Made by a program: the position numbers and the translations under genes | From: a phage | Length of the DNA: 64,000 nt | Direction: 5' to 3' (one strand) | Sequence record: PX915678.1 | Shown here: positions 4,700-39,851 of the stretch, piece after piece | How the letters are laid out: each line of letters begins with the position of its first letter | How positions within the stretch are numbered: the stretch's first letter is position 1 | Notes under the pieces: model-generated | What the model was told of the DNA's origin: nothing | The model's input: only the letters and a program-made list of their open reading frames with translations | The model's database searches: none

Positions 4700-5092
4700 T
4701 CACTTAGTCAAATTTTTTACACATGAATTATAAGAATTCACTACATACTCCATCGGAGCATTTTTACCTGTGCGCCATTGGTAATTATTAGCCCAATTAG
4801 CCCAAAGTTCGGCGCAGTAGTTTTCAATTTTTTCTTCGCGTGTAATTACATCTGAATTACGATATGCTTGAGCAGATTCATCTGGACGAATAGCTTCGTC
4901 AAAATTCGCCTGCATTTGTTCTACTGTCTGTTTTGGAGCCTCTTTATAACACTTAACATTAGGATTATAAAATTTGCTTGAACAATTTACAGTTTTTCCT
5001 GCATCAGACTGATTTACTACCGGTCCTTGAGCTACACAACCAGTAAGACCCAATGCAATAACCAAAATAGCGATTTTCATTTCATTCTCCAA
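4700..5092 (-). CDS. Predicted lipoprotein, function unknown
   Basis: 130-aa ORF; signal peptide with lipobox LTGC (MKIAILVIALGLTGCVA); own early promoter upstream. Confidence 0.6.
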   Translation of the reverse strand: MENEMKIAILVIALGLTGCVAQGPVVNQSDAGKTVNCSSKFYNPNVKCYKEAPKQTVEQMQANFDEAIRPDESAQAYRNSDVITREEKIENYCAELWANWANNYQWRTGKNAPMEYVVNSYNSCVKNLTK

Positions 5093-5107
5093 ATTTGTAT
5101 TGGTTGA

Positions 5108-5150
5108 TAGTTATATAGTACCAAAGAGGAACAGTCTTGTAAACAGTTTT
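5108..5150 (-). promoter_or_regulatory. T4 early (sigma70-type) promoter
   Basis: Minus strand GTTTACA, 17 nt, GGTACTATATAA; repeated cassette also seen at 30286, 31727, 47308. Confidence 0.7.
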
Positions 5151-5227
5151 GTGAAAAATTTTTTAATGAATTCCAAAGGTCCAGAATCATCTATTTTTTC
5201 CTAAGTATAGATTTATATTACTTGTAT

Positions 5228-5250
5228 GAAAAAGGGACCCGGAGGTCCCC
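5228..5250 (-). terminator. Intrinsic terminator after gene 43
   Basis: Minus strand GGGGACCUCCGGGUCCC hairpin followed by UUUUUC, 12 nt after the gene 43 stop. Confidence 0.7.
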
Positions 5251-5262
5251 AGATTTATTCTA

Positions 5263-7959
5263 TCAGCCAAACAGGAAGTCTAACGAAGCTTTTTCCTCAT
5301 AGTCCATACCTGCCGATTCACACATACCAGCAAGAGGTTTAACAAACGATTTTTGGAACAAAGTTGAGTAGTCAATCCAAGACAGTACGTCAGAACGAAT
5401 TTCTTTTGGAAGTTCTGTACCCGACGGCCAAGCAATGCACTTGTCACCAAACGGATTTCCTTCGCGTAATGGAAGAACCATTACCTTATTTCCATCCAAA
5501 ATTGGAGCTACACCTAAACCGCTAACAGCTCGACGATAAGTTAGCACACCGCGAATATGGAACGGGCATTTAAATCCTGGCCAGCCTTTATCATCATATT
5601 TCGCTATATCGTTCGCAGTTTTTACTTCAGCAATAACTTTATAGTCAAGTTGACGATATTCTTTCTCAAAGTTCTTGTAGTATTCTTGGACAGACTCTTC
5701 ACCTTCCTGAAGAATACGACGAATACTTTCTTCGAGAGCTTCTTGTACTGCTTTTGGTGTTGAACTCTGTTGAGTTTCCATACCCATGATTTTTAAATGC
5801 GGTTCGGCAAATCGCTTATCTTCCATATCATAAACGTTCAGAGCATAACGTTTTTTCGCTTTCCAAAATCCACCAACACCCTTTGAACCAAGTGGAGGGC
5901 AAGAAATAGCTTCACGGTCCATATGCATCAGATGCTCGCGGTTATTCATATAATCACATAACTCACGATATGCAACATCAATCATAGGTTCCATCTTTTT
6001 CTTACCAAACTGATTCATGAATTCAACTAAATCATTTTGTTCTTTAAAGCGATCAAGACCTACTTTTTCAATAACTTTATCTACACAAACATATACCGAA
6101 TCAGTATCACCTGCTGCGATGAAATCTTCACCATTAGTTCCACATACTTTATTTAGATACTCATTAATTTTACGAGCAATCCATTGAATACCGACTTGAC
6201 CGAAAATTGTGATAGCAGTAGCATTTCGCAAATCATAGTAGCGAAAATGAATATTACCAAGAGCACCATAAAGACTGTTAATAAGAATTTTACGGTTCAG
6301 CTGATTTGTGTTAGCAAGCGTAGCTGCTTTTTCACATTCTTCGATCAGACTATTAAGAACAGATTCAGTGTAATTCGATAATTCGTTTAAGAAATCATCA
6401 TTGAACTTAACATATCGTTCAACTTCCGGTTTAGTTGAACAGGACCCTGCACCTTTCATAATAATCTTTTTAATAGCTTCGGCATTCATTTCTTCCGCGA
6501 ACATTTTCTTTTTCCAATCTTTACGCTGGAAAAATACTTTAGCGATTTCCTTTGGAATGATACCTTCTTGGTGCTTATCATACATCCATCCATTCGGAGA
6601 GCAAGAATATTCATCACTTGGCTTAGGAGCTGTTCCTGCGATATATTCATGAATTGGATGAACTTTAAACTGCCCGCGAATAGTCTCAGGACTAATGTTA
6701 ACCTGACGAATAATGCTAGGATACAGAGACGTCAAGTCAAAACTCATAATGTATCGACGAGCAATCGGTTTAGGTTCAAACACAAATGCACCTGGAAAAC
6801 TCTGTTTAACGTGCAAACCTTGTTGAGGAATAACCTTATGTTCACCTTTCAGTGAGTTAAAAATAATAGCATCCCAAGTTTTAATAGGACTCATTACACC
6901 AGAAAAAGGCATTTTAGCGTAATAAGACATACTTAAAACTAGATCGATAAACCCACGAATTTTATCAATTGCTTGAACTGATTCTACGTCAATGATGTTA
7001 TAACTAATGTATCGTTGATGATTAGTCTCACGAAGTTTATTAATAGGACCATCGTACGGCAATTTACCTTTTTTGGTTTCATGCTGAGCAACTGATTCCA
7101 AAGAGAACGATGGCAAATTAGTAAATGCGAATTTCTTGTACAAATCTAAATAATCAAGAATAGATACGCCATCAATAGAATAAATTTCTTTGCTACCGTA
7201 CATATTTTGAATTAGTTTAGATTTTACTCGACCGATTGGAGAGAAGCGTTTCATACTGCGTTCGCCGAGAACCATTTTAACGCGATTCATGATATACGGA
7301 ACGTCAAATCCCTCAATATTCCAACCGGTAAAAATAGCAGGTCGTTTCTGTTCCCAGAGATTAATATATTCCATGAGCATATCACGCTCATTATCAAATG
7401 GCATATAAATTACTCGGTCAAGAATTTCTTGAGGAACTTCATCACCACCTTCACAGTCAAGCTTAGCAGCTAACTTTGCATCCCATTTTGATACTGAACC
7501 GTACATTGAATTCAACAAATCAAAGACGTAAAAACGATCGTCAATTGAATCATAATGAGTGATAGCATCAATTTCATATTCTGCTTTCATTGGGTCAGGA
7601 AATTTATCACCAGTAACCTCAATGTCACAGTTAGCTACACGAACAAATTTTCGGTCATAAACAATTTCTGAACCATATGTATCACTGATATAAGCGAGTT
7701 TAAAATCGTTCATACCGAGAGCTTCGAGACCGATGTCTTCCATTCGTTTCATCCAATCTCGTGCATCTTTCATTGATGGAAATTTTTGAGGAGCGCAATT
7801 TTTACCATAAATGTCTTTGTATTTTGACTCTTCCTTACAATGCCTAAACATAGTCGGAAGATATTCTACTTCACGAGTACGTTCCTTTCCATTTTCATCA
7901 ATATAACGCTCAACAATGTTATTTCCGACTGTTTCGATAGAGATATAAAATTCTTTCAT
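5263..7959 (-). CDS. 43: DNA polymerase gp43 (family B)
   Basis: 898-aa ORF, same length as T4 gp43; MKEFYISIETVGNNI N-terminus; exonuclease and polymerase motifs present. Confidence 0.95.
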   Translation of the reverse strand: MKEFYISIETVGNNIVERYIDENGKERTREVEYLPTMFRHCKEESKYKDIYGKNCAPQKFPSMKDARDWMKRMEDIGLEALGMNDFKLAYISDTYGSEIVYDRKFVRVANCDIEVTGDKFPDPMKAEYEIDAITHYDSIDDRFYVFDLLNSMYGSVSKWDAKLAAKLDCEGGDEVPQEILDRVIYMPFDNERDMLMEYINLWEQKRPAIFTGWNIEGFDVPYIMNRVKMVLGERSMKRFSPIGRVKSKLIQNMYGSKEIYSIDGVSILDYLDLYKKFAFTNLPSFSLESVAQHETKKGKLPYDGPINKLRETNHQRYISYNIIDVESVQAIDKIRGFIDLVLSMSYYAKMPFSGVMSPIKTWDAIIFNSLKGEHKVIPQQGLHVKQSFPGAFVFEPKPIARRYIMSFDLTSLYPSIIRQVNISPETIRGQFKVHPIHEYIAGTAPKPSDEYSCSPNGWMYDKHQEGIIPKEIAKVFFQRKDWKKKMFAEEMNAEAIKKIIMKGAGSCSTKPEVERYVKFNDDFLNELSNYTESVLNSLIEECEKAATLANTNQLNRKILINSLYGALGNIHFRYYDLRNATAITIFGQVGIQWIARKINEYLNKVCGTNGEDFIAAGDTDSVYVCVDKVIEKVGLDRFKEQNDLVEFMNQFGKKKMEPMIDVAYRELCDYMNNREHLMHMDREAISCPPLGSKGVGGFWKAKKRYALNVYDMEDKRFAEPHLKIMGMETQQSSTPKAVQEALEESIRRILQEGEESVQEYYKNFEKEYRQLDYKVIAEVKTANDIAKYDDKGWPGFKCPFHIRGVLTYRRAVSGLGVAPILDGNKVMVLPLREGNPFGDKCIAWPSGTELPKEIRSDVLSWIDYSTLFQKSFVKPLAGMCESAGMDYEEKASLDFLFG

Positions 7960-36631: not shown

Positions 36632-37213
36632 CTAACCGAGCTTTTTAGTTAATTCATTCCAGTGTTTTCTACACAAAGAAACATAAATTTCATCACCAAT
36701 ACAGATTTGATTACCTTCTTTAACTGGTGTTCCATCTTCCATTAATCGAGCTGTCATAATCGCTTTTTTACCACAATGACAAACTGCTTTTAGTTCAATA
36801 AGTTTATCTGCAATCGCCAAAAGTTCTTTAGAACCTTCAAATAATTTTCCAGCGAAATCAGTCCTTAGACCATAAGCCATAACAGGAACATTATATGTAT
36901 CAACAATTCGGCTTAATTGATGCACCTGTTCAGTTTTTAAAAACTGAGCTTCATCTACAAATACACAATGAATATCTTTTTGTGCTTCAGCCCATTTATA
37001 GAACTCAAAAATATCCATATCATCCGTAATAATATTCGCTTCCTGTTTAATTCCAATGCGAGAAACGACTTCACAGACAGAATCGCGAGTATCAATAGCA
37101 GGCTTAAGAACTAATACACTCATTCCACGTTCTTTATAATTATGCGCAGCAGTCAAAAGAGAAGCAGATTTTCCAGCATTCATTGCTGCATAAGTAAAAA
37201 TTAAACTCGCCAT
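36632..37213 (-). CDS. tk: Thymidine kinase
   Basis: 193-aa ORF; P-loop AAMNAGKS; C-terminal zinc Cys pairs; T4 Tk length. Confidence 0.92.
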   Translation of the reverse strand: MASLIFTYAAMNAGKSASLLTAAHNYKERGMSVLVLKPAIDTRDSVCEVVSRIGIKQEANIITDDMDIFEFYKWAEAQKDIHCVFVDEAQFLKTEQVHQLSRIVDTYNVPVMAYGLRTDFAGKLFEGSKELLAIADKLIELKAVCHCGKKAIMTARLMEDGTPVKEGNQICIGDEIYVSLCRKHWNELTKKLG

Positions 37214-37222
37214 ATCACCTTC

Positions 37223-37408
37223 TTAAAGCGTATTCACATAAGCTATTAATTCATTTTCTTTCTTATCAAACCGATCAGCAAATTCTTCCTGCTGTTCGGG
37301 AGATAGCGGGCCGTATTCATCATAAAAGGTGTTTGCTTCTGTATGCTCATCTAGAAGTTCATGGATAAGCTCAAACAATTTATCTTTTTGTTCTTTACTC
37401 AGACTCAT
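37223..37408 (-). CDS. Hypothetical acidic protein
   Basis: 61-aa ORF. Confidence 0.5.
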   Translation of the reverse strand: MSLSKEQKDKLFELIHELLDEHTEANTFYDEYGPLSPEQQEEFADRFDKKENELIAYVNTL

Positions 37409-37578
37409 ATATTAATTTCCAGGAGTTTTAAAATAATTCGCTTTTGCTTAAATATTTCCACAGTTAAATGATCAGTATCTTTTTGACCGATTCCAATGGC
37501 AAAACCTTTATTAACAGCGAGTTCAATTAAATTATCAAGTTCACGTAACACTTCATATTGTAGCTCAGAACTATTCAT
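37405..37578 (-). CDS. Hypothetical 57-aa protein (below track threshold)
   Basis: SD GAAGG before ATG 37576-37578; ATGA overlaps at both ends. Confidence 0.45.
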   Translation of the reverse strand: MNSSELQYEVLRELDNLIELAVNKGFAIGIGQKDTDHLTVEIFKQKRIILKLLEINI

Positions 37579-37802
37579 TTCGGTTTACCTTCTTTAACGA
37601 AATCAGGATAAGGATAAAATCCTGAATAAAATCCTTCACCTTTGTGATTGGTGCATCCTTTATTAGAACAATAGCACCAATAATCGAAATCACAAGTCAT
37701 TTCATCATTACATAAAGCAAAAACAACTGGCCATTCACACTTTTCGCAGTGGGCATTTTTAAGAATACTAGTTTGGCTCATAACCATGTAACCTTTAAGC
37801 AA
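37575..37802 (-). CDS. Cys-rich small protein (likely zinc-binding)
   Basis: 75-aa ORF with 9 Cys (CEKCEW...CNDEMTCDFDYWCYCSNKGC). Confidence 0.5.
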   Translation of the reverse strand: MLKGYMVMSQTSILKNAHCEKCEWPVVFALCNDEMTCDFDYWCYCSNKGCTNHKGEGFYSGFYPYPDFVKEGKPK

Positions 37803-37990
37803 TATTCTTCTACGTGCTGTTTACGACCTTTCTTATCAATAAAGGTATATTCAACGAATGTTCCAATATAGTCTTTATCTACATCATGCGGACTATTAAT
37901 TGGGCATTTAGTACGGCAAATGCGTTCCCATTGACGAATAATTTCCACTTTGTTTTTAGGATCAAACGGATGCGGGTAATGTACTTTCAT
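37778..37990 (-). CDS. Hypothetical protein
   Basis: 70-aa ORF with Cys/His pairs. Confidence 0.45.
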   Translation of the reverse strand: MKVHYPHPFDPKNKVEIIRQWERICRTKCPINSPHDVDKDYIGTFVEYTFIDKKGRKQHVEEYCLKVTWL

Positions 37991-38441
37991 AATCCACCAC
38001 TATTAAATCAATATCAAGAGTAAACATGTCGATTAATTTAGAAACCTTATCCCAATCACCACCAGCAATACCGCAACCTATGCGTGGAATGTAAATTACT
38101 GGTTTAAACAAAAGGGTTTCTGCCTGTAGATTTAATTCTATCATGCAGTTTACTAAAGCACCATAATCAAGATTAGGACCCGGTTCATATTGCGTATACA
38201 GGTTATAGCATATACCAAATCCTGTAGGATTATGTTTAAAAACAATAGACATATCGCCTAATTTATCACGAGAACCGTACTCGGTAGTGGTTTTATCTAT
38301 TTCTAAAATTTTGGGATAGGCTCTTGCTAATTGACCTGCTACGCCAGAGCCCATTGTGTGGAAGCAATTACACCCGTGCGCAATAATATTACCTTGAAGA
38401 AATAGGGCGACAATATCGCCCTTGATATATTTTACAATCAT
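37962..38441 (-). CDS. Macro-domain protein (ADP-ribose binding or hydrolysing fold)
   Basis: 159-aa ORF; macro signatures GDIVAL...HGCNCFHTMGSGVAGQL and IGCGIAGGDW. Confidence 0.65.
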   Translation of the reverse strand: MIVKYIKGDIVALFLQGNIIAHGCNCFHTMGSGVAGQLARAYPKILEIDKTTTEYGSRDKLGDMSIVFKHNPTGFGICYNLYTQYEPGPNLDYGALVNCMIELNLQAETLLFKPVIYIPRIGCGIAGGDWDKVSKLIDMFTLDIDLIVVDYESTLPASV

Positions 38442-38785
38442 CTAGTACTCAATCCTCGATTATAAGAATCTACTAAACGGTCAACCATTGAATGACAAGC
38501 GGCTTTATCTTTCTCCTCCGCAACTGAACATTCTAAGGTATTCCACTTTTTAGCATATCGTTTTAACAATGTATCATTTTTGTATCTGCTTGATTTATCT
38601 CTTTCTCCGTCTTTATATGCATATATTAATTTCTGCGCAAATTCAGCTTGGCATGCTTTATTTTTCCCGCAATAATCCGCGGCAGTACGATTTACATACT
38701 CTCTAATTTCAGTATATGATGTATCTGCTGATGCAGAAGCAGAAAATGAAATTAATCCTATACATAAAACCAAAATTTTAGTCAT
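38438..38785 (-). CDS. Secreted protein, function unknown
   Basis: 115-aa ORF with cleavable signal peptide MTKILVLCIGLISFSASASA and Cys pairs. Confidence 0.5.
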   Translation of the reverse strand: MTKILVLCIGLISFSASASADTSYTEIREYVNRTAADYCGKNKACQAEFAQKLIYAYKDGERDKSSRYKNDTLLKRYAKKWNTLECSVAEEKDKAACHSMVDRLVDSYNRGLSTR

Positions 38786-39323
38786 TTACTATTTCCAAAA
38801 GTTTATTATTTTTAAGGTAATTAGCCTTTTCTAGGACTTCAGAAGCATATTTAGAACCTGCTTTAACATTCCATCCCGAATTATAAGAGGATATTGCTTT
38901 TCTTATATCGCCCTTATGTATATTTAACCAATAAGAAAGTTCAATGTACGCCCAGGAAGCTGAATTGGACCGTTTATTCAACATTCTTTTTATTTCAGCA
39001 TCGGTCATATTATAACCAAGTTCCTTAACTCTTGCTCGCATAGTTGGCAAATAATTTTGGAACATTCCATAGGCATGATGCTTTGGTTTAGATTTTAAAT
39101 TAACTCCGGCAGAGCTTTCTTGCCACAAAATAGCAGCCATTATATGACCCAATCCGCTCTTGTGGATATTTTTGTGTGTTTTATATTTTCCATCCTTAGA
39201 AAATTGTTCCCCGAATTGATATGCGTAACGCATGTTATCGAGTTGGACATTACTGAAAGTATGCTCGGAGCTATGCGCCATCATTGAAATGGCCAATAGA
39301 CCAGCGAGTAGTGCTTTTCTCAT
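38778..39323 (-). CDS. Secreted lytic transglycosylase-like (SLT domain) protein
   Basis: 181-aa ORF; signal peptide; SLT-like motifs ES...GMFQ and YNSG. Confidence 0.6.
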   Translation of the reverse strand: MRKALLAGLLAISMMAHSSEHTFSNVQLDNMRYAYQFGEQFSKDGKYKTHKNIHKSGLGHIMAAILWQESSAGVNLKSKPKHHAYGMFQNYLPTMRARVKELGYNMTDAEIKRMLNKRSNSASWAYIELSYWLNIHKGDIRKAISSYNSGWNVKAGSKYASEVLEKANYLKNNKLLEIVND

Positions 39324-39330
39324 GCTTACC

Positions 39331-39792
39331 TCATTGAGTTTTAATTACTGCTTTAGAAGCCTTTCCTGGTAAACGACGACTGTTGATAATTGCCATCCTG
39401 CATTGAAGCGACGGGTCTTTGAACTTCGCATTAGGTTTACAAACTGTAAATCCAAGCCAAAGATTTCCATCTGTAATTTCTAAACGTCCAGGACGGTATT
39501 CAACCCCATCAATAAAATCCTCGTCAATGTCAGGACGCGGAGGCATACTCAGGAATTCATTAACTTCTAAAACATGGTCTTTTATTTTGTGGAATAATTC
39601 AAAAACATATGTCTCATCAATCTCCCGTTGAATTGCACGATCAAGAAGATGCTGAGAATATTTTAGATGAAACGATGAGACCCCTGCTGCTTTTGATGCC
39701 TCACGAATCTCATTGTTAATTTGACGAAACTCCGACTCAAAGTGACGACGAAGCTTATTTCGACGGATAAAAACTTCTGTGTTGATAGTCAT
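39331..39792 (-). CDS. regB: RegB sequence-specific endoribonuclease
   Basis: 153-aa ORF; matches T4 RegB as recalled; early promoter upstream. Confidence 0.85.
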   Translation of the reverse strand: MTINTEVFIRRNKLRRHFESEFRQINNEIREASKAAGVSSFHLKYSQHLLDRAIQREIDETYVFELFHKIKDHVLEVNEFLSMPPRPDIDEDFIDGVEYRPGRLEITDGNLWLGFTVCKPNAKFKDPSLQCRMAIINSRRLPGKASKAVIKTQ

Positions 39793-39814: not shown

Positions 39815-39851
39815 GAAAAATTATACCACAGTCAAGAGGAAAAGTAAACAG
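39815..39851 (-). promoter_or_regulatory. T4 early promoter of regB
   Basis: Minus strand GTTTAC, 16 nt, TGGTATAAT. Confidence 0.7.

What the first reader, a model, noticed from the sequence alone, without database searches (positions are those of the whole stretch)
37962..38441. Early-expressed macro-domain protein beside Cys-rich mini-proteins
The 159-aa product carries macro-domain hallmarks (N-terminal GD-hydrophobic strand, MGSGVAGQL glycine loop, distal IGCGIAGGDW). Macro domains bind or hydrolyse ADP-ribose conjugates and related NAD-derived nucleotides. In a phage that itself ADP-ribosylates host proteins, such a protein could tune its own modifications, or remove defence-derived ADP-ribose marks or signals. 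It is flanked by Cys-rich small proteins (37575-37802, 37778-37990) that may be zinc-binding partners.
Basis: partly seen in the sequence, partly recalled or inferred. Interest (0 to 1): 0.5.

Follow-up and report, generated by a model that had tools for sequence, protein, structure and literature searches.

The report
Phage macrodomain that undoes DNA ADP-ribosylation
This is gene tk.4 (adfM) of a T4-like phage, a small macrodomain enzyme whose T4 counterpart was recently shown to protect the phage from the bacterial DarTG2 defence; the gene is real and intact but its kind and role are already known.

Summary
Window 37962-38441 (minus strand) encodes a 159-aa protein that passes Pfam's Macro threshold. 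Its model is confident (pLDDT 94). The best structural matches are TARG1, Poa1p, BT1257 and the DarG macrodomain.

The window is a Tequatrovirus (T4-like) genome, and the gene lies between vs and tk.3, where tk.4 lies in T4. It has carried an A1pp/macro annotation for about 20 years.

A November 2025 preprint (HIDEN-SEQ) found tk.4 to be the single T4 gene needed to resist DarTG2, and a clean knockout sensitised T4. The authors renamed it adfM (anti-DarT factor Macrodomain).

New here, and minor:
- This allele is only 58% identical to the tested T4 allele, although its flanks are 93-100% identical to T4.
- It keeps every residue invariant in the family, including Gln84 where TARG1 and DarG have the catalytic lysine. 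That matches SCO6735.

Not supported: the Cys-rich neighbours as partners. T4 lacks one of them, and more than 2000 phage records have the macrodomain without either. The idea that the protein tunes the phage's own ADP-ribosylation also has no support.

Verdict: already known, low interest.

The parts
37962..38441 (-). tk.4 / adfM: 159-aa stand-alone macrodomain of the ALC1-like (TARG1/DarG/SCO6735) class. Family-invariant residues are H22, G23, N25, C26, G33, A35, D49, N80, Y82, Q84, P119 and W130.
   Evidence: ORF. Pfam Macro, 33.1 bits. Model pLDDT 94.1. Foldseek hits to TARG1, Poa1p, BT1257 and DarG. 58% identity to T4 Tk.4, E=3e-70. Same position between vs and tk.3 as in T4. Invariant residues.
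38438..38785 (-). vs (valyl-tRNA synthetase modifier), the upstream gene. Its stop overlaps the tk.4 start as ATGA, which suggests co-transcription and coupled translation. It is not functionally part of the macrodomain.
   Evidence: 100% amino-acid identity to T4 Vs. Overlap read directly from the sequence.
37778..37990 (-). tk.3 (DUF7202, 70 aa, 3 Cys), the downstream neighbour. It overlaps the tk.4 3' end by 29 nt. Function unknown; not shown to be a partner.
   Evidence: Pfam PF23832, E=1.2e-37. 93% identity to T4 Tk.3. Found in 838 phage records against 2854 for the macrodomain.
37575..37781 (-). 68-aa Cys-rich ORF (Pfam 'Phage zinc binding domain'). It is a syntenic resident of the tk.4-to-tk interval in several Straboviridae genera but is absent from T4. 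Not shown to be a partner.
   Evidence: Pfam PF23895, E=2.5e-29. Start as annotated in teqskov. Absent from the T4 locus. Present near tk.4 in W115, ZX14, IT22, KP15, JC03 and T2.
39820..39848 (-). Early-type sigma-70 promoter-like site (TTTACT, 17 nt, TG-extended TATAAT) upstream of regB. It is the likely source of an early transcript running regB, vs.1, vs, tk.4.
   Evidence: Scan hit with 10 of 12 matches plus TG. Sequence read directly. Function is inferred, and promoter-like sites are not enriched in the region overall (19 found against 19.8 expected).

Best explanation
The gene is the tk.4/adfM orthologue of a T4-like phage. It encodes a stand-alone macrodomain ADP-ribosyl glycohydrolase, made early in infection.

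Proposed mechanism: the enzyme strips the ADP-ribose that the host toxin DarT2 (DarTG2 defence) attaches to thymidine in single-stranded phage DNA, so replication can proceed. It corresponds to the N-terminal catalytic domain of the DarG antitoxin without the C-terminal DarT-binding domain, so it is an orphan antitoxin. Its active site is of the SCO6735 type, with an invariant Gln84 where TARG1 and DarG have the catalytic lysine. This implies a water-mediated mechanism without a Schiff base, not TARG1's Lys/Asp chemistry.

What is shown and what is inferred:
- Shown here: fold, family, orthology by position, and conservation of the active-site residues.
- Shown by others: the T4 allele (58% identical) is required for DarTG2 resistance.
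- Inferred: that this allele does the same, that the activity is enzymatic removal from DNA, and the catalytic role of Gln84.
For: Fold and family:
- Pfam Macro above threshold.
- Confident model whose best PDB matches are TARG1, Poa1p, BT1257 and DarG from Thermus and Mycobacterium.
- A profile of 118 homologues hits BT1257 (9e-18), TARG1 (9e-16), SCO6735 (1e-14), Mtb DarG (3e-12) and Taq DarG (2e-10).
- The best NCBIfam hit and the only PADLOC hit are DarG, aligned to its N-terminal macrodomain only: positions 2-138 of 338 and 3-143 of 329.

Orthology:
- Same slot between vs and tk.3 as T4 tk.4, with flanking proteins 93-100% identical to T4.
- 58% identity to T4 Tk.4, E=3e-70.

Function of the orthologue:
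- T4 tk.4 was the single hit in a DarTG2 challenge, and a clean knockout was sensitised.
- T4 lacking adfA and adfN stays DarTG2-resistant, which had predicted such a factor.

Enzymology of relatives:
- SCO6735 removes thymidine-linked ADP-ribose and needs Gln85 at the lysine-equivalent position.
- PhiKZ gp104, a macrodomain also named AdfM, removes DarT2 marks from TNTC DNA in vitro, and N23A lowers its activity. N23 aligns with the invariant N25 here.

Active site: Q84 aligns with TARG1 K84 and A126 with TARG1 D125. Every residue that is invariant in the family is present in both the T4 allele and this one.
Against: - No experiment exists on this allele. It is 58% identical to the tested T4 allele overall, and only 38-51% beyond residue 48.
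- The T4 result is a preprint and is genetic only. Enzymatic removal of ADP-ribose from DNA by Tk.4 has not been shown.
- The DNA-contacting lysines described for SCO6735 (Lys34, Lys89) have no counterpart here, and the loop after Gln84 is short.
- SCO6735 also inhibits DarT by binding, so protection need not be purely catalytic.
- A comparative-genomics survey argued that phage macrodomains mostly act on soluble ADP-ribose derivatives.
Confidence: 0.8

Rival explanations
1. It is an ADP-ribose-1''-phosphate phosphatase (Poa1p-like, the 'phosphatase' of RefSeq annotation) that clears a by-product of RNA 2'-phosphate removal or RNA repair during infection.
For: - Yeast Poa1p is among the best sequence and structure matches.
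- Tk.4 shares Poa1p's H-x-CNC motif (HGCNC against HSCNC), including the His that was mutated in the Poa1p H23A structure.
- T4 and many RefSeq records name the product 'phosphatase; contains A1pp phosphatase motif'. One record says 'Poa1p_like'.
Against: - The annotation is domain-derived and was never tested.
- The only phenotype known for tk.4 is DarTG2 sensitivity.
- Weak A1pp phosphatase activity is, to my knowledge, common among macrodomains and rarely their physiological role.
Confidence: 0.05
2. It reverses protein or RNA ADP-ribosylation. The marks would be either the phage's own (Alt, ModA, ModB) or those written by host defence ADP-ribosyltransferases other than DarT2.
For: - The relatives TARG1 and SCO6735 also cleave protein-linked (Glu/Asp) ADP-ribose.
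- T4-like phages encode ADP-ribosyltransferases (background knowledge).
- Authors of the AdfN study suggest that some counter-defences may also detoxify RNA ADP-ribosylation.
Against: - Alt and Mod enzymes make arginine-linked ADP-ribose, which is not a known substrate of ALC1-like macrodomains (background knowledge, not tested here).
- T4 carrying tk.4 is still strongly restricted by the mRNA ADP-ribosyltransferase system CmdTAC.
- tk.4 is non-essential without DarTG2.
Confidence: 0.05
3. It binds or degrades soluble ADP-ribose-derived immune signals (for example Thoeris cyclic ADPR isomers or His-ADPR), acting as a sponge or hydrolase.
For: - A survey of viral NAD/ADPr systems proposed that phage macrodomains mainly target low-molecular-weight ADP-ribose derivatives.
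- The family is very widespread in phages: 2854 records.
Against: - No experimental support for this family.
- The closest characterised relatives (DarG, SCO6735, TARG1, PhiKZ AdfM) act on macromolecule-linked ADP-ribose.
- The DarTG2 phenotype explains why the gene is retained.
Confidence: 0.04
4. Protection is mainly non-catalytic: the macrodomain binds DarT2 and blocks it, as SCO6735 and DarG can.
For: - Catalytically dead SCO6735 (Q85A), DarG and TARG1 still inhibit DarT in vitro, and SCO6735 does so most strongly.
- Other phage anti-DarT factors (AdfA, AdfB) act by binding the toxin.
Against: - The protein lacks the C-terminal DarT-binding domain of DarG.
- The strict invariance of the active-site residues N25, Q84 and the glycine loops across 118 homologues argues for selection on catalysis.
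- The N23A mutation reduced de-ADP-ribosylating activity of the PhiKZ macrodomain in vitro.
Confidence: 0.06

Closest known systems
T4 Tk.4 = AdfM (anti-DarT factor Macrodomain; bioRxiv 10.1101/2025.11.20.689424)
   Same: - Same genomic slot between vs and tk.3.
- Same length class (159 against 155 aa).
- 58% identity, E=3e-70.
- All family-invariant residues shared.
   Different: - A diverged allele: 83% identity in residues 1-48 but 38-51% beyond that.
- The second glycine loop reads IGCGIAGGDW against IGAGIGKGNW in T4.
- Four extra C-terminal residues.
- This allele has not been tested.
Streptomyces coelicolor SCO6735 (PDB 5E3B) and Bacteroides BT1257 (2FG1/2AFC)
   Same: - Stand-alone ALC1-like macrodomains not linked to a DarT gene.
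- Gln at the position of the catalytic lysine.
- PRIGCG(I/L)AGGxW loop.
- SCO6735 removes thymidine-linked ADP-ribose.
   Different: - About 25% identity.
- Tk.4 lacks the longer mobile loop (BT1257 has a 6-residue insertion after the Gln).
- Tk.4 lacks the Lys34 and Lys89 DNA contacts.
- Bacterial housekeeping context rather than phage.
DarG antitoxin macrodomain (Thermus 5M31/5M3E, M. tuberculosis 5M3I)
   Same: - Same fold: TM 0.74-0.78.
- DarG is the best NCBIfam hit and the only PADLOC hit.
- Same biological target, DarT2-made ADP-ribosyl-thymidine.
   Different: - No C-terminal DarT-binding domain.
- Gln84 instead of catalytic Lys80.
- Not encoded beside a DarT.
- Score far below the DarG equivalog cut-off (27.6 against 250 bits).
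PhiKZ gp104 AdfM (Cell Rep 2026, PMC13309987)
   Same: - Phage stand-alone macrodomain that counters DarTG2.
- Its conserved Asn (N23) aligns with N25 here.
   Different: - Only distantly related: BLASTP E=0.004 over 23 residues, profile E=5e-13.
- Carries the DarG-like FPTK lysine motif rather than Gln.
- Imported into the phage nucleus.
Human TARG1/OARD1 (4J5R/4J5S) and yeast Poa1p (6LFQ-6LFU)
   Same: Top structural matches (E about 1e-9, TM up to 0.83). Shared His-x-C/x-N and glycine loops.
   Different: The TARG1 Lys84/Asp125 dyad is replaced by Gln84/Ala126. These are eukaryotic proteins with protein or metabolite substrates.

Membership tests
Macro domain (Pfam PF01661) | Profile score above Pfam's gathering cut-off over most of the domain | tested here: met
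   33.1 bits against a cut-off of 22, covering profile positions 2-117 of 118.
Macro domain (Pfam PF01661) | Three-layer alpha/beta macro fold | tested here: met
   AF2 model with pLDDT 94.1 and pTM 0.89. 156 PDB matches at E<=0.001; every listed hit is a macrodomain or a protein designed on one, and the top ones are TARG1, Poa1p, BT1257 and DarG.
ALC1-like macrodomain class (TARG1 / DarG / SCO6735 / Poa1p) | Closest sequence and structure relatives belong to this class rather than to the MacroD, PARG or viral Mac1 classes | tested here: met
   Profile hits run from 9e-18 to 2e-10 for class members, against 5e-3 for coronavirus Mac1. The Foldseek ranking agrees.
T4 Tk.4 / AdfM orthologous group | Positional orthology between vs and tk.3, with significant full-length similarity | tested here: met
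   Gene order regB, vs.1, vs, tk.4, tk.3 is identical to T4, and the flanks are 93-100% identical. 58% identity over 155 aa, E=3e-70.
T4 Tk.4 / AdfM orthologous group | Confers resistance to DarTG2 | not testable with these tools
   Shown only for the T4 allele. T2, which is also DarTG2-resistant, carries the T4 allele and not this one.
DarG antitoxin (NCBIfam NF048014, equivalog) | Full-length match above the curated cut-off, including the C-terminal DarT-binding domain | tested here: not met
   27.6 bits against a cut-off of 250. Only profile positions 2-138 of 338 align, and the protein ends at residue 159. PADLOC DarG aligns at 3-143 of 329.
DarG antitoxin | Catalytic lysine (Lys80 in Thermus DarG, Lys84 in TARG1) | tested here: not met
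   The aligned residue is Gln84, invariant in 118 homologues.
DarG antitoxin | Encoded next to a DarT toxin gene | tested here: not met
   The neighbours are vs and tk.3. Neither neighbour tested, tk.3 or the zinc-binding ORF, matches any PADLOC model. A bacterial homologue is also stand-alone.
SCO6735-type hydrolase | Gln at the lysine-equivalent catalytic position (Gln85, essential in SCO6735) | tested here: met
   Q84 aligns with TARG1 K84 and with the Gln of BT1257. The paper states that Gln85 is equivalent to the catalytic lysine. The direct Tk.4-SCO6735 alignment over this residue was not printed; it is inferred from a constant offset.
SCO6735-type hydrolase | Extended mobile loop with DNA-contacting lysines (Lys89, Lys93/94) | tested here: not met
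   The loop between Q84 and Y93 has 8 residues (YEPGPNLD), the same length as in TARG1, and contains no Lys. BT1257 shows a 6-residue insertion there.
TARG1 | Lys84/Asp125 catalytic dyad | tested here: not met
   Gln84 and Ala126 occupy the aligned positions.
Poa1p-like ADP-ribose-1''-phosphate phosphatase | Appr-1''-p phosphatase activity | not testable with these tools
   Sequence similarity in the N-terminal half only (E=2.8e-9) and a shared H-x-CNC motif. No assay is available.

The most novel reading that the evidence does not exclude
The sharply diverged tk.4 alleles that circulate among otherwise near-identical T4-like phages are functionally different. There are at least three discrete classes: this one, the T4/T2 type, and a class 80-90% identical to T4. 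They could differ in the DarT variants countered, in the ADP-ribose linkage cleaved (another base, RNA or protein), or in sensitivity to a host factor that senses or inhibits the macrodomain. The syntenic zinc-binding mini-protein, present with this allele but absent from T4, could contribute. On this reading the locus would be an arms-race hot spot and not a single fixed function.
Probability: 0.1. Interest if true: 0.5.

Novelty: already known. Interest (0 to 1): 0.15.

Why it matters
It matters little as a discovery. The gene has been annotated as an A1pp/macro-domain protein since the T4 genome annotation and a 2006 comparative paper. Its anti-DarTG2 role was reported in 2025.

The useful residue is practical:
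- The allele in this window is the commonest one in sequenced T4-like phages (313 records at >=90% identity), and it is not the one that was tested.
- The family has glutamine, not lysine, at the catalytic position.
- Anyone generalising AdfM function, or using DarTG2 sensitivity to predict phage host range, should test this allele. Structural work on the Gln-type mechanism could use it.

Tried and rejected
- Zinc-binding partners. I compared the distribution of tk.3 (838 records), the zinc-binding ORF (778) and the macrodomain (2854), and inspected 12 loci from 11 genera. The zinc-binding ORF keeps its place in the tk.4-to-tk interval in six Straboviridae genera. It is absent from T4, pKp20 and all four loci outside the tk-vs synteny block (three non-Straboviridae phages and one unclassified Acinetobacter phage). 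I rejected it as an obligate partner. Conserved synteny of T4-like genomes explains the adjacency equally well.
- Base rate of Cys-rich small ORFs. Only 1 of 48 small ORFs in the window has >=4 Cys, so the adjacency is not trivially expected. This was judged post hoc and is not decisive.
- Direct alignment to SCO6735 over Gln85. A sub-sequence query returned only the PRIGCG loop. The equivalence rests on the TARG1 and BT1257 profile alignment plus the paper.
- Generic promoter scan. Sites are not enriched (19 against 19.8 expected). Only the site upstream of regB looks like a T4 early promoter. The potential promoter annotated in the old T4 record just upstream of tk.4 has, in this window, a 14-nt spacer by my own reading of the sequence, and I did not count it.
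- MotA-box (middle promoter) search. A match lies inside tk.4 at 38135-38160, but it is not conserved in the T4 allele, so I do not claim it is functional.
- Bacterial origin beside a DarT. A 40%-identical Pelagimonas homologue sits among housekeeping genes with no DarT.
- CmdTAC (mRNA ADP-ribosylation) as a target. T4 is strongly restricted by it although it carries tk.4.

Full report
**What is there**

Window 37962-38441 holds a 159-aa ORF on the minus strand. The ATG overlaps the stop codon of the upstream gene as ATGA. The 3' end overlaps the next ORF by 29 nt.

The surrounding genes identify the window as a Tequatrovirus (T4-like) genome:
- thymidine kinase at 36632-37213;
- the valyl-tRNA synthetase modifier vs at 38438-38785;
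- the SLT-domain protein vs.1 at 38778-39323;
- RegB at 39331-39792.

In T4 itself the gene between vs and tk.3 is tk.4, product 'phosphatase; contains A1pp phosphatase motif'. Nearly identical copies of the window's gene are deposited in hundreds of phage genomes as 'macro domain protein', 'phosphatase' or 'hypothetical protein'.

**Is it a macrodomain?**

Yes, by every test available.
- Pfam Macro scores 33.1 bits against a cut-off of 22 and covers nearly the whole profile.
- A direct search of PDB sequences finds BT1257 (1.6e-10), yeast Poa1p, SCO6735 (8.5e-8), M. tuberculosis DarG (3.7e-4) and TARG1.
- A profile of 118 homologues raises these to between 9e-18 and 2e-10. Coronavirus Mac1 is left at 5e-3.
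- The AlphaFold2 model built on that alignment is confident: pLDDT 94.1, pTM 0.89.
- Its best Foldseek matches are TARG1, Poa1p, BT1257 and the DarG macrodomains, with TM 0.72-0.83.
- DarG is the best NCBIfam hit and the only PADLOC hit. The alignment covers only the N-terminal macrodomain of DarG, and the score is far below the equivalog cut-off.

The protein is therefore a stand-alone macrodomain of the ALC1-like class. It is not a DarG.

**What is already known**

- The A1pp/macro domain of tk.4 was noted in the T4 annotation and in a 2006 comparison of T4-like phages.
- In 2025 Johannesman et al. showed that T4 lacking both adfA and adfN still resists DarTG2, and they predicted a further factor.
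- The HIDEN-SEQ preprint (bioRxiv 10.1101/2025.11.20.689424) then challenged a saturated T4 transposon library with DarTG2. [quoted passage not shown] A clean knockout sensitised T4, and the gene was renamed adfM. That work is genetic, and enzymatic removal of ADP-ribose by Tk.4 was inferred.
- Biochemical support comes from relatives. SCO6735 removes thymidine-linked ADP-ribose and rescues cells from DarT. An unrelated-lineage phage macrodomain, PhiKZ gp104, also named AdfM, removes DarT2 marks from TNTC DNA in vitro.

**Active site**

Across 118 homologues the invariant residues are H22, G23, N25, C26, G33, A35, D49, N80, Y82, Q84, P119 and W130.

- In the profile alignment to TARG1, Q84 sits at catalytic Lys84 and A126 at Asp125. 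BT1257 also has Gln at this position.
- The SCO6735 study reports that Gln85 occupies the lysine-equivalent position and is essential. It proposes a water-mediated mechanism.
- Tk.4 shares the PRIGCG(I/L)AGGxW loop with SCO6735 and BT1257.
- Tk.4 lacks their longer mobile loop and its lysines. Its loop after Gln84 has the TARG1/DarG length.
- PhiKZ AdfM carries the DarG-like FPTK lysine motif instead. Its mutated Asn23 aligns with N25 here.

The T4-type AdfM family is thus a Gln-type enzyme, mechanistically nearer to SCO6735 than to DarG. This is inference from alignment and has not been assayed.

**This allele is not the tested one**

- The window's protein is only 58% identical to T4 Tk.4.
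- The neighbouring proteins are 93-100% identical to T4: Tk 99.5%, Tk.3 93%, Vs 100%, Vs.1 99.4%, RegB 99.3%.
- DNA identity to T4 is 98-100% in vs, falls to 37-70% across about 37960-38300, and returns to 90-98% in tk.3.
- By segment, residues 1-48 are 83% identical to T4, residues 49-118 are 51%, and residues 119-155 are 38%. The C-terminal part resembles the Kanagawavirus ZX14 protein more closely, at 65%.
- In the phage collection, 313 records carry this allele at >=90% identity. 224 carry the T4 allele, T2 among them. 159 carry a class 80-90% identical to T4. Few records are intermediate.
- All residues invariant in the family are the same in both alleles. Differences in the second glycine loop bring this allele closer to the family consensus than T4 is.

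I therefore expect the same function, but that is inference. The pattern fits recombinational allele exchange at an anti-defence locus.

**The neighbours**

- ORF 37778-37990 is tk.3 (DUF7202) with 3 Cys.
- ORF 37575-37781 is a 68-aa member of Pfam's 'Phage zinc binding domain'.
- T4 lacks the zinc-binding ORF at this locus.
- The macrodomain occurs in 2854 phage records, against 838 and 778 for the two small proteins.
- Macro loci in Jiaodavirus, Felixounavirus, Certrevirus, Pakpunavirus and an Acinetobacter phage have neither small protein.
- The zinc-binding ORF does keep a place between tk.4 and tk in Tequatrovirus, Krischvirus, Kanagawavirus, Roskildevirus, Slopekvirus and Pseudotevenvirus.
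- Cys-rich small ORFs are otherwise rare in this window: 1 of 48 has >=4 Cys.

The adjacency is not meaningless. Conserved synteny explains it, though, and the DarTG2 screen found only tk.4. The caveat is that very small genes with few TA sites were not classified in that screen. A partnership is not supported, but it is not excluded.

**Expression**

- A textbook T4 early-type promoter, TTTACT-17-TGgTATAAT, precedes regB at 39848-39820.
- regB, vs.1, vs, tk.4 and tk.3 are tightly packed or overlapping on one strand.
- The homologous T4 segment was published as an 'early region'.
- Tk.4 protein was detected in T2-infected cells.

'Early-expressed' is reasonable but not shown here.

**Rivals**

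- Poa1p-like Appr-1''-p phosphatase. This is the historical annotation, and it shares the HxCNC motif.
- Reversal of protein or RNA ADP-ribosylation.
- Action on soluble ADP-ribose signals, as proposed generally for phage macrodomains.
- Toxin binding without catalysis, which SCO6735 can do.

None has direct support for tk.4. Together I give them about 0.2.

**Verdict**

- Novelty: already known.
- Interest: 0.15. What remains is the untested, commonest allele and the Gln-type active site.

Noticed in passing
window 37960-38300 (inside tk.4), compared with T4 NC_000866 60922-61389: There is a divergence island. DNA identity to T4 drops to 37-70% inside tk.4, while vs upstream is 98-100% and tk.3 downstream is 90-98% identical. 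At least three discrete tk.4 allele classes circulate among T4-like phages, with 313, 224 and 159 records.
   Followed up: yes
window 37223-37781, compared with T4 tk.1-tk.2: The segment between tk.3 and tk is a different gene set from T4. It holds a tk.2-like 61-aa ORF (54% identical), a 57-aa ORF (PHROG 3452) and the 68-aa zinc-binding ORF. T4 has tk.1 and tk.2 there. T2 carries the window-like gene set plus a further ORF in the tk.1 position, but the T4 tk.4 allele, so the two variable modules assort independently.
   Followed up: partly
L011 (Klebsiella phage KP15) 3001-3186; L012 (Cronobacter phage JC03) 3001-3189: Homologues of the zinc-binding mini-protein are detectable by tblastn just upstream of tk, but they are not annotated as genes in these records.
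   Followed up: no
window 38404-38422: A perfect 7-bp inverted repeat (AGGGCGA TATTG TCGCCCT) lies within tk.4 codons 7-13. The terminator scan flagged it on both strands. The sequence is identical in T4 tk.4. It could be an mRNA hairpin near the start codon or just conserved coding sequence.
   Followed up: partly
window 38135-38160 (minus strand): A MotA-box-like middle-promoter match (TGCTTTA, 12 nt, TAGAAT) lies inside tk.4 codons 94-103 and points towards tk.3. The T4 allele lacks it (CGCTTTA...).
   Followed up: partly
whole window: The middle-promoter pattern TGCTTYA-N11-13-TANNNT occurs 16 times, 13 of them on the minus strand, against 2.5 expected from shuffles. This fits a T4-type MotA regulon across the window.
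   Followed up: no
L006 (Felixounavirus Alf5) 1794-2780: The macro homologue is a 261-aa protein with a C-terminal extension of about 100 aa of unknown nature. An unrelated 66-aa ORF with 7 Cys lies directly upstream. Krischvirus W115 likewise has an unrelated 64-aa ORF with 5 Cys directly after its macro gene.
   Followed up: no
window 38438-38785 (vs): The gene upstream of tk.4, vs, is 100% identical to T4 Vs. The HIDEN-SEQ preprint reports vs as the most strongly depleted gene in minimal medium compared with LB, a conditional phenotype unrelated to tk.4.
   Followed up: no
L014 (Pelagimonas phthalicica chromosome) 5001-5459: A 40%-identical bacterial homologue of Tk.4 is a stand-alone chromosomal gene among housekeeping genes with no DarT nearby. 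This resembles the orphan status of SCO6735.
   Followed up: partly
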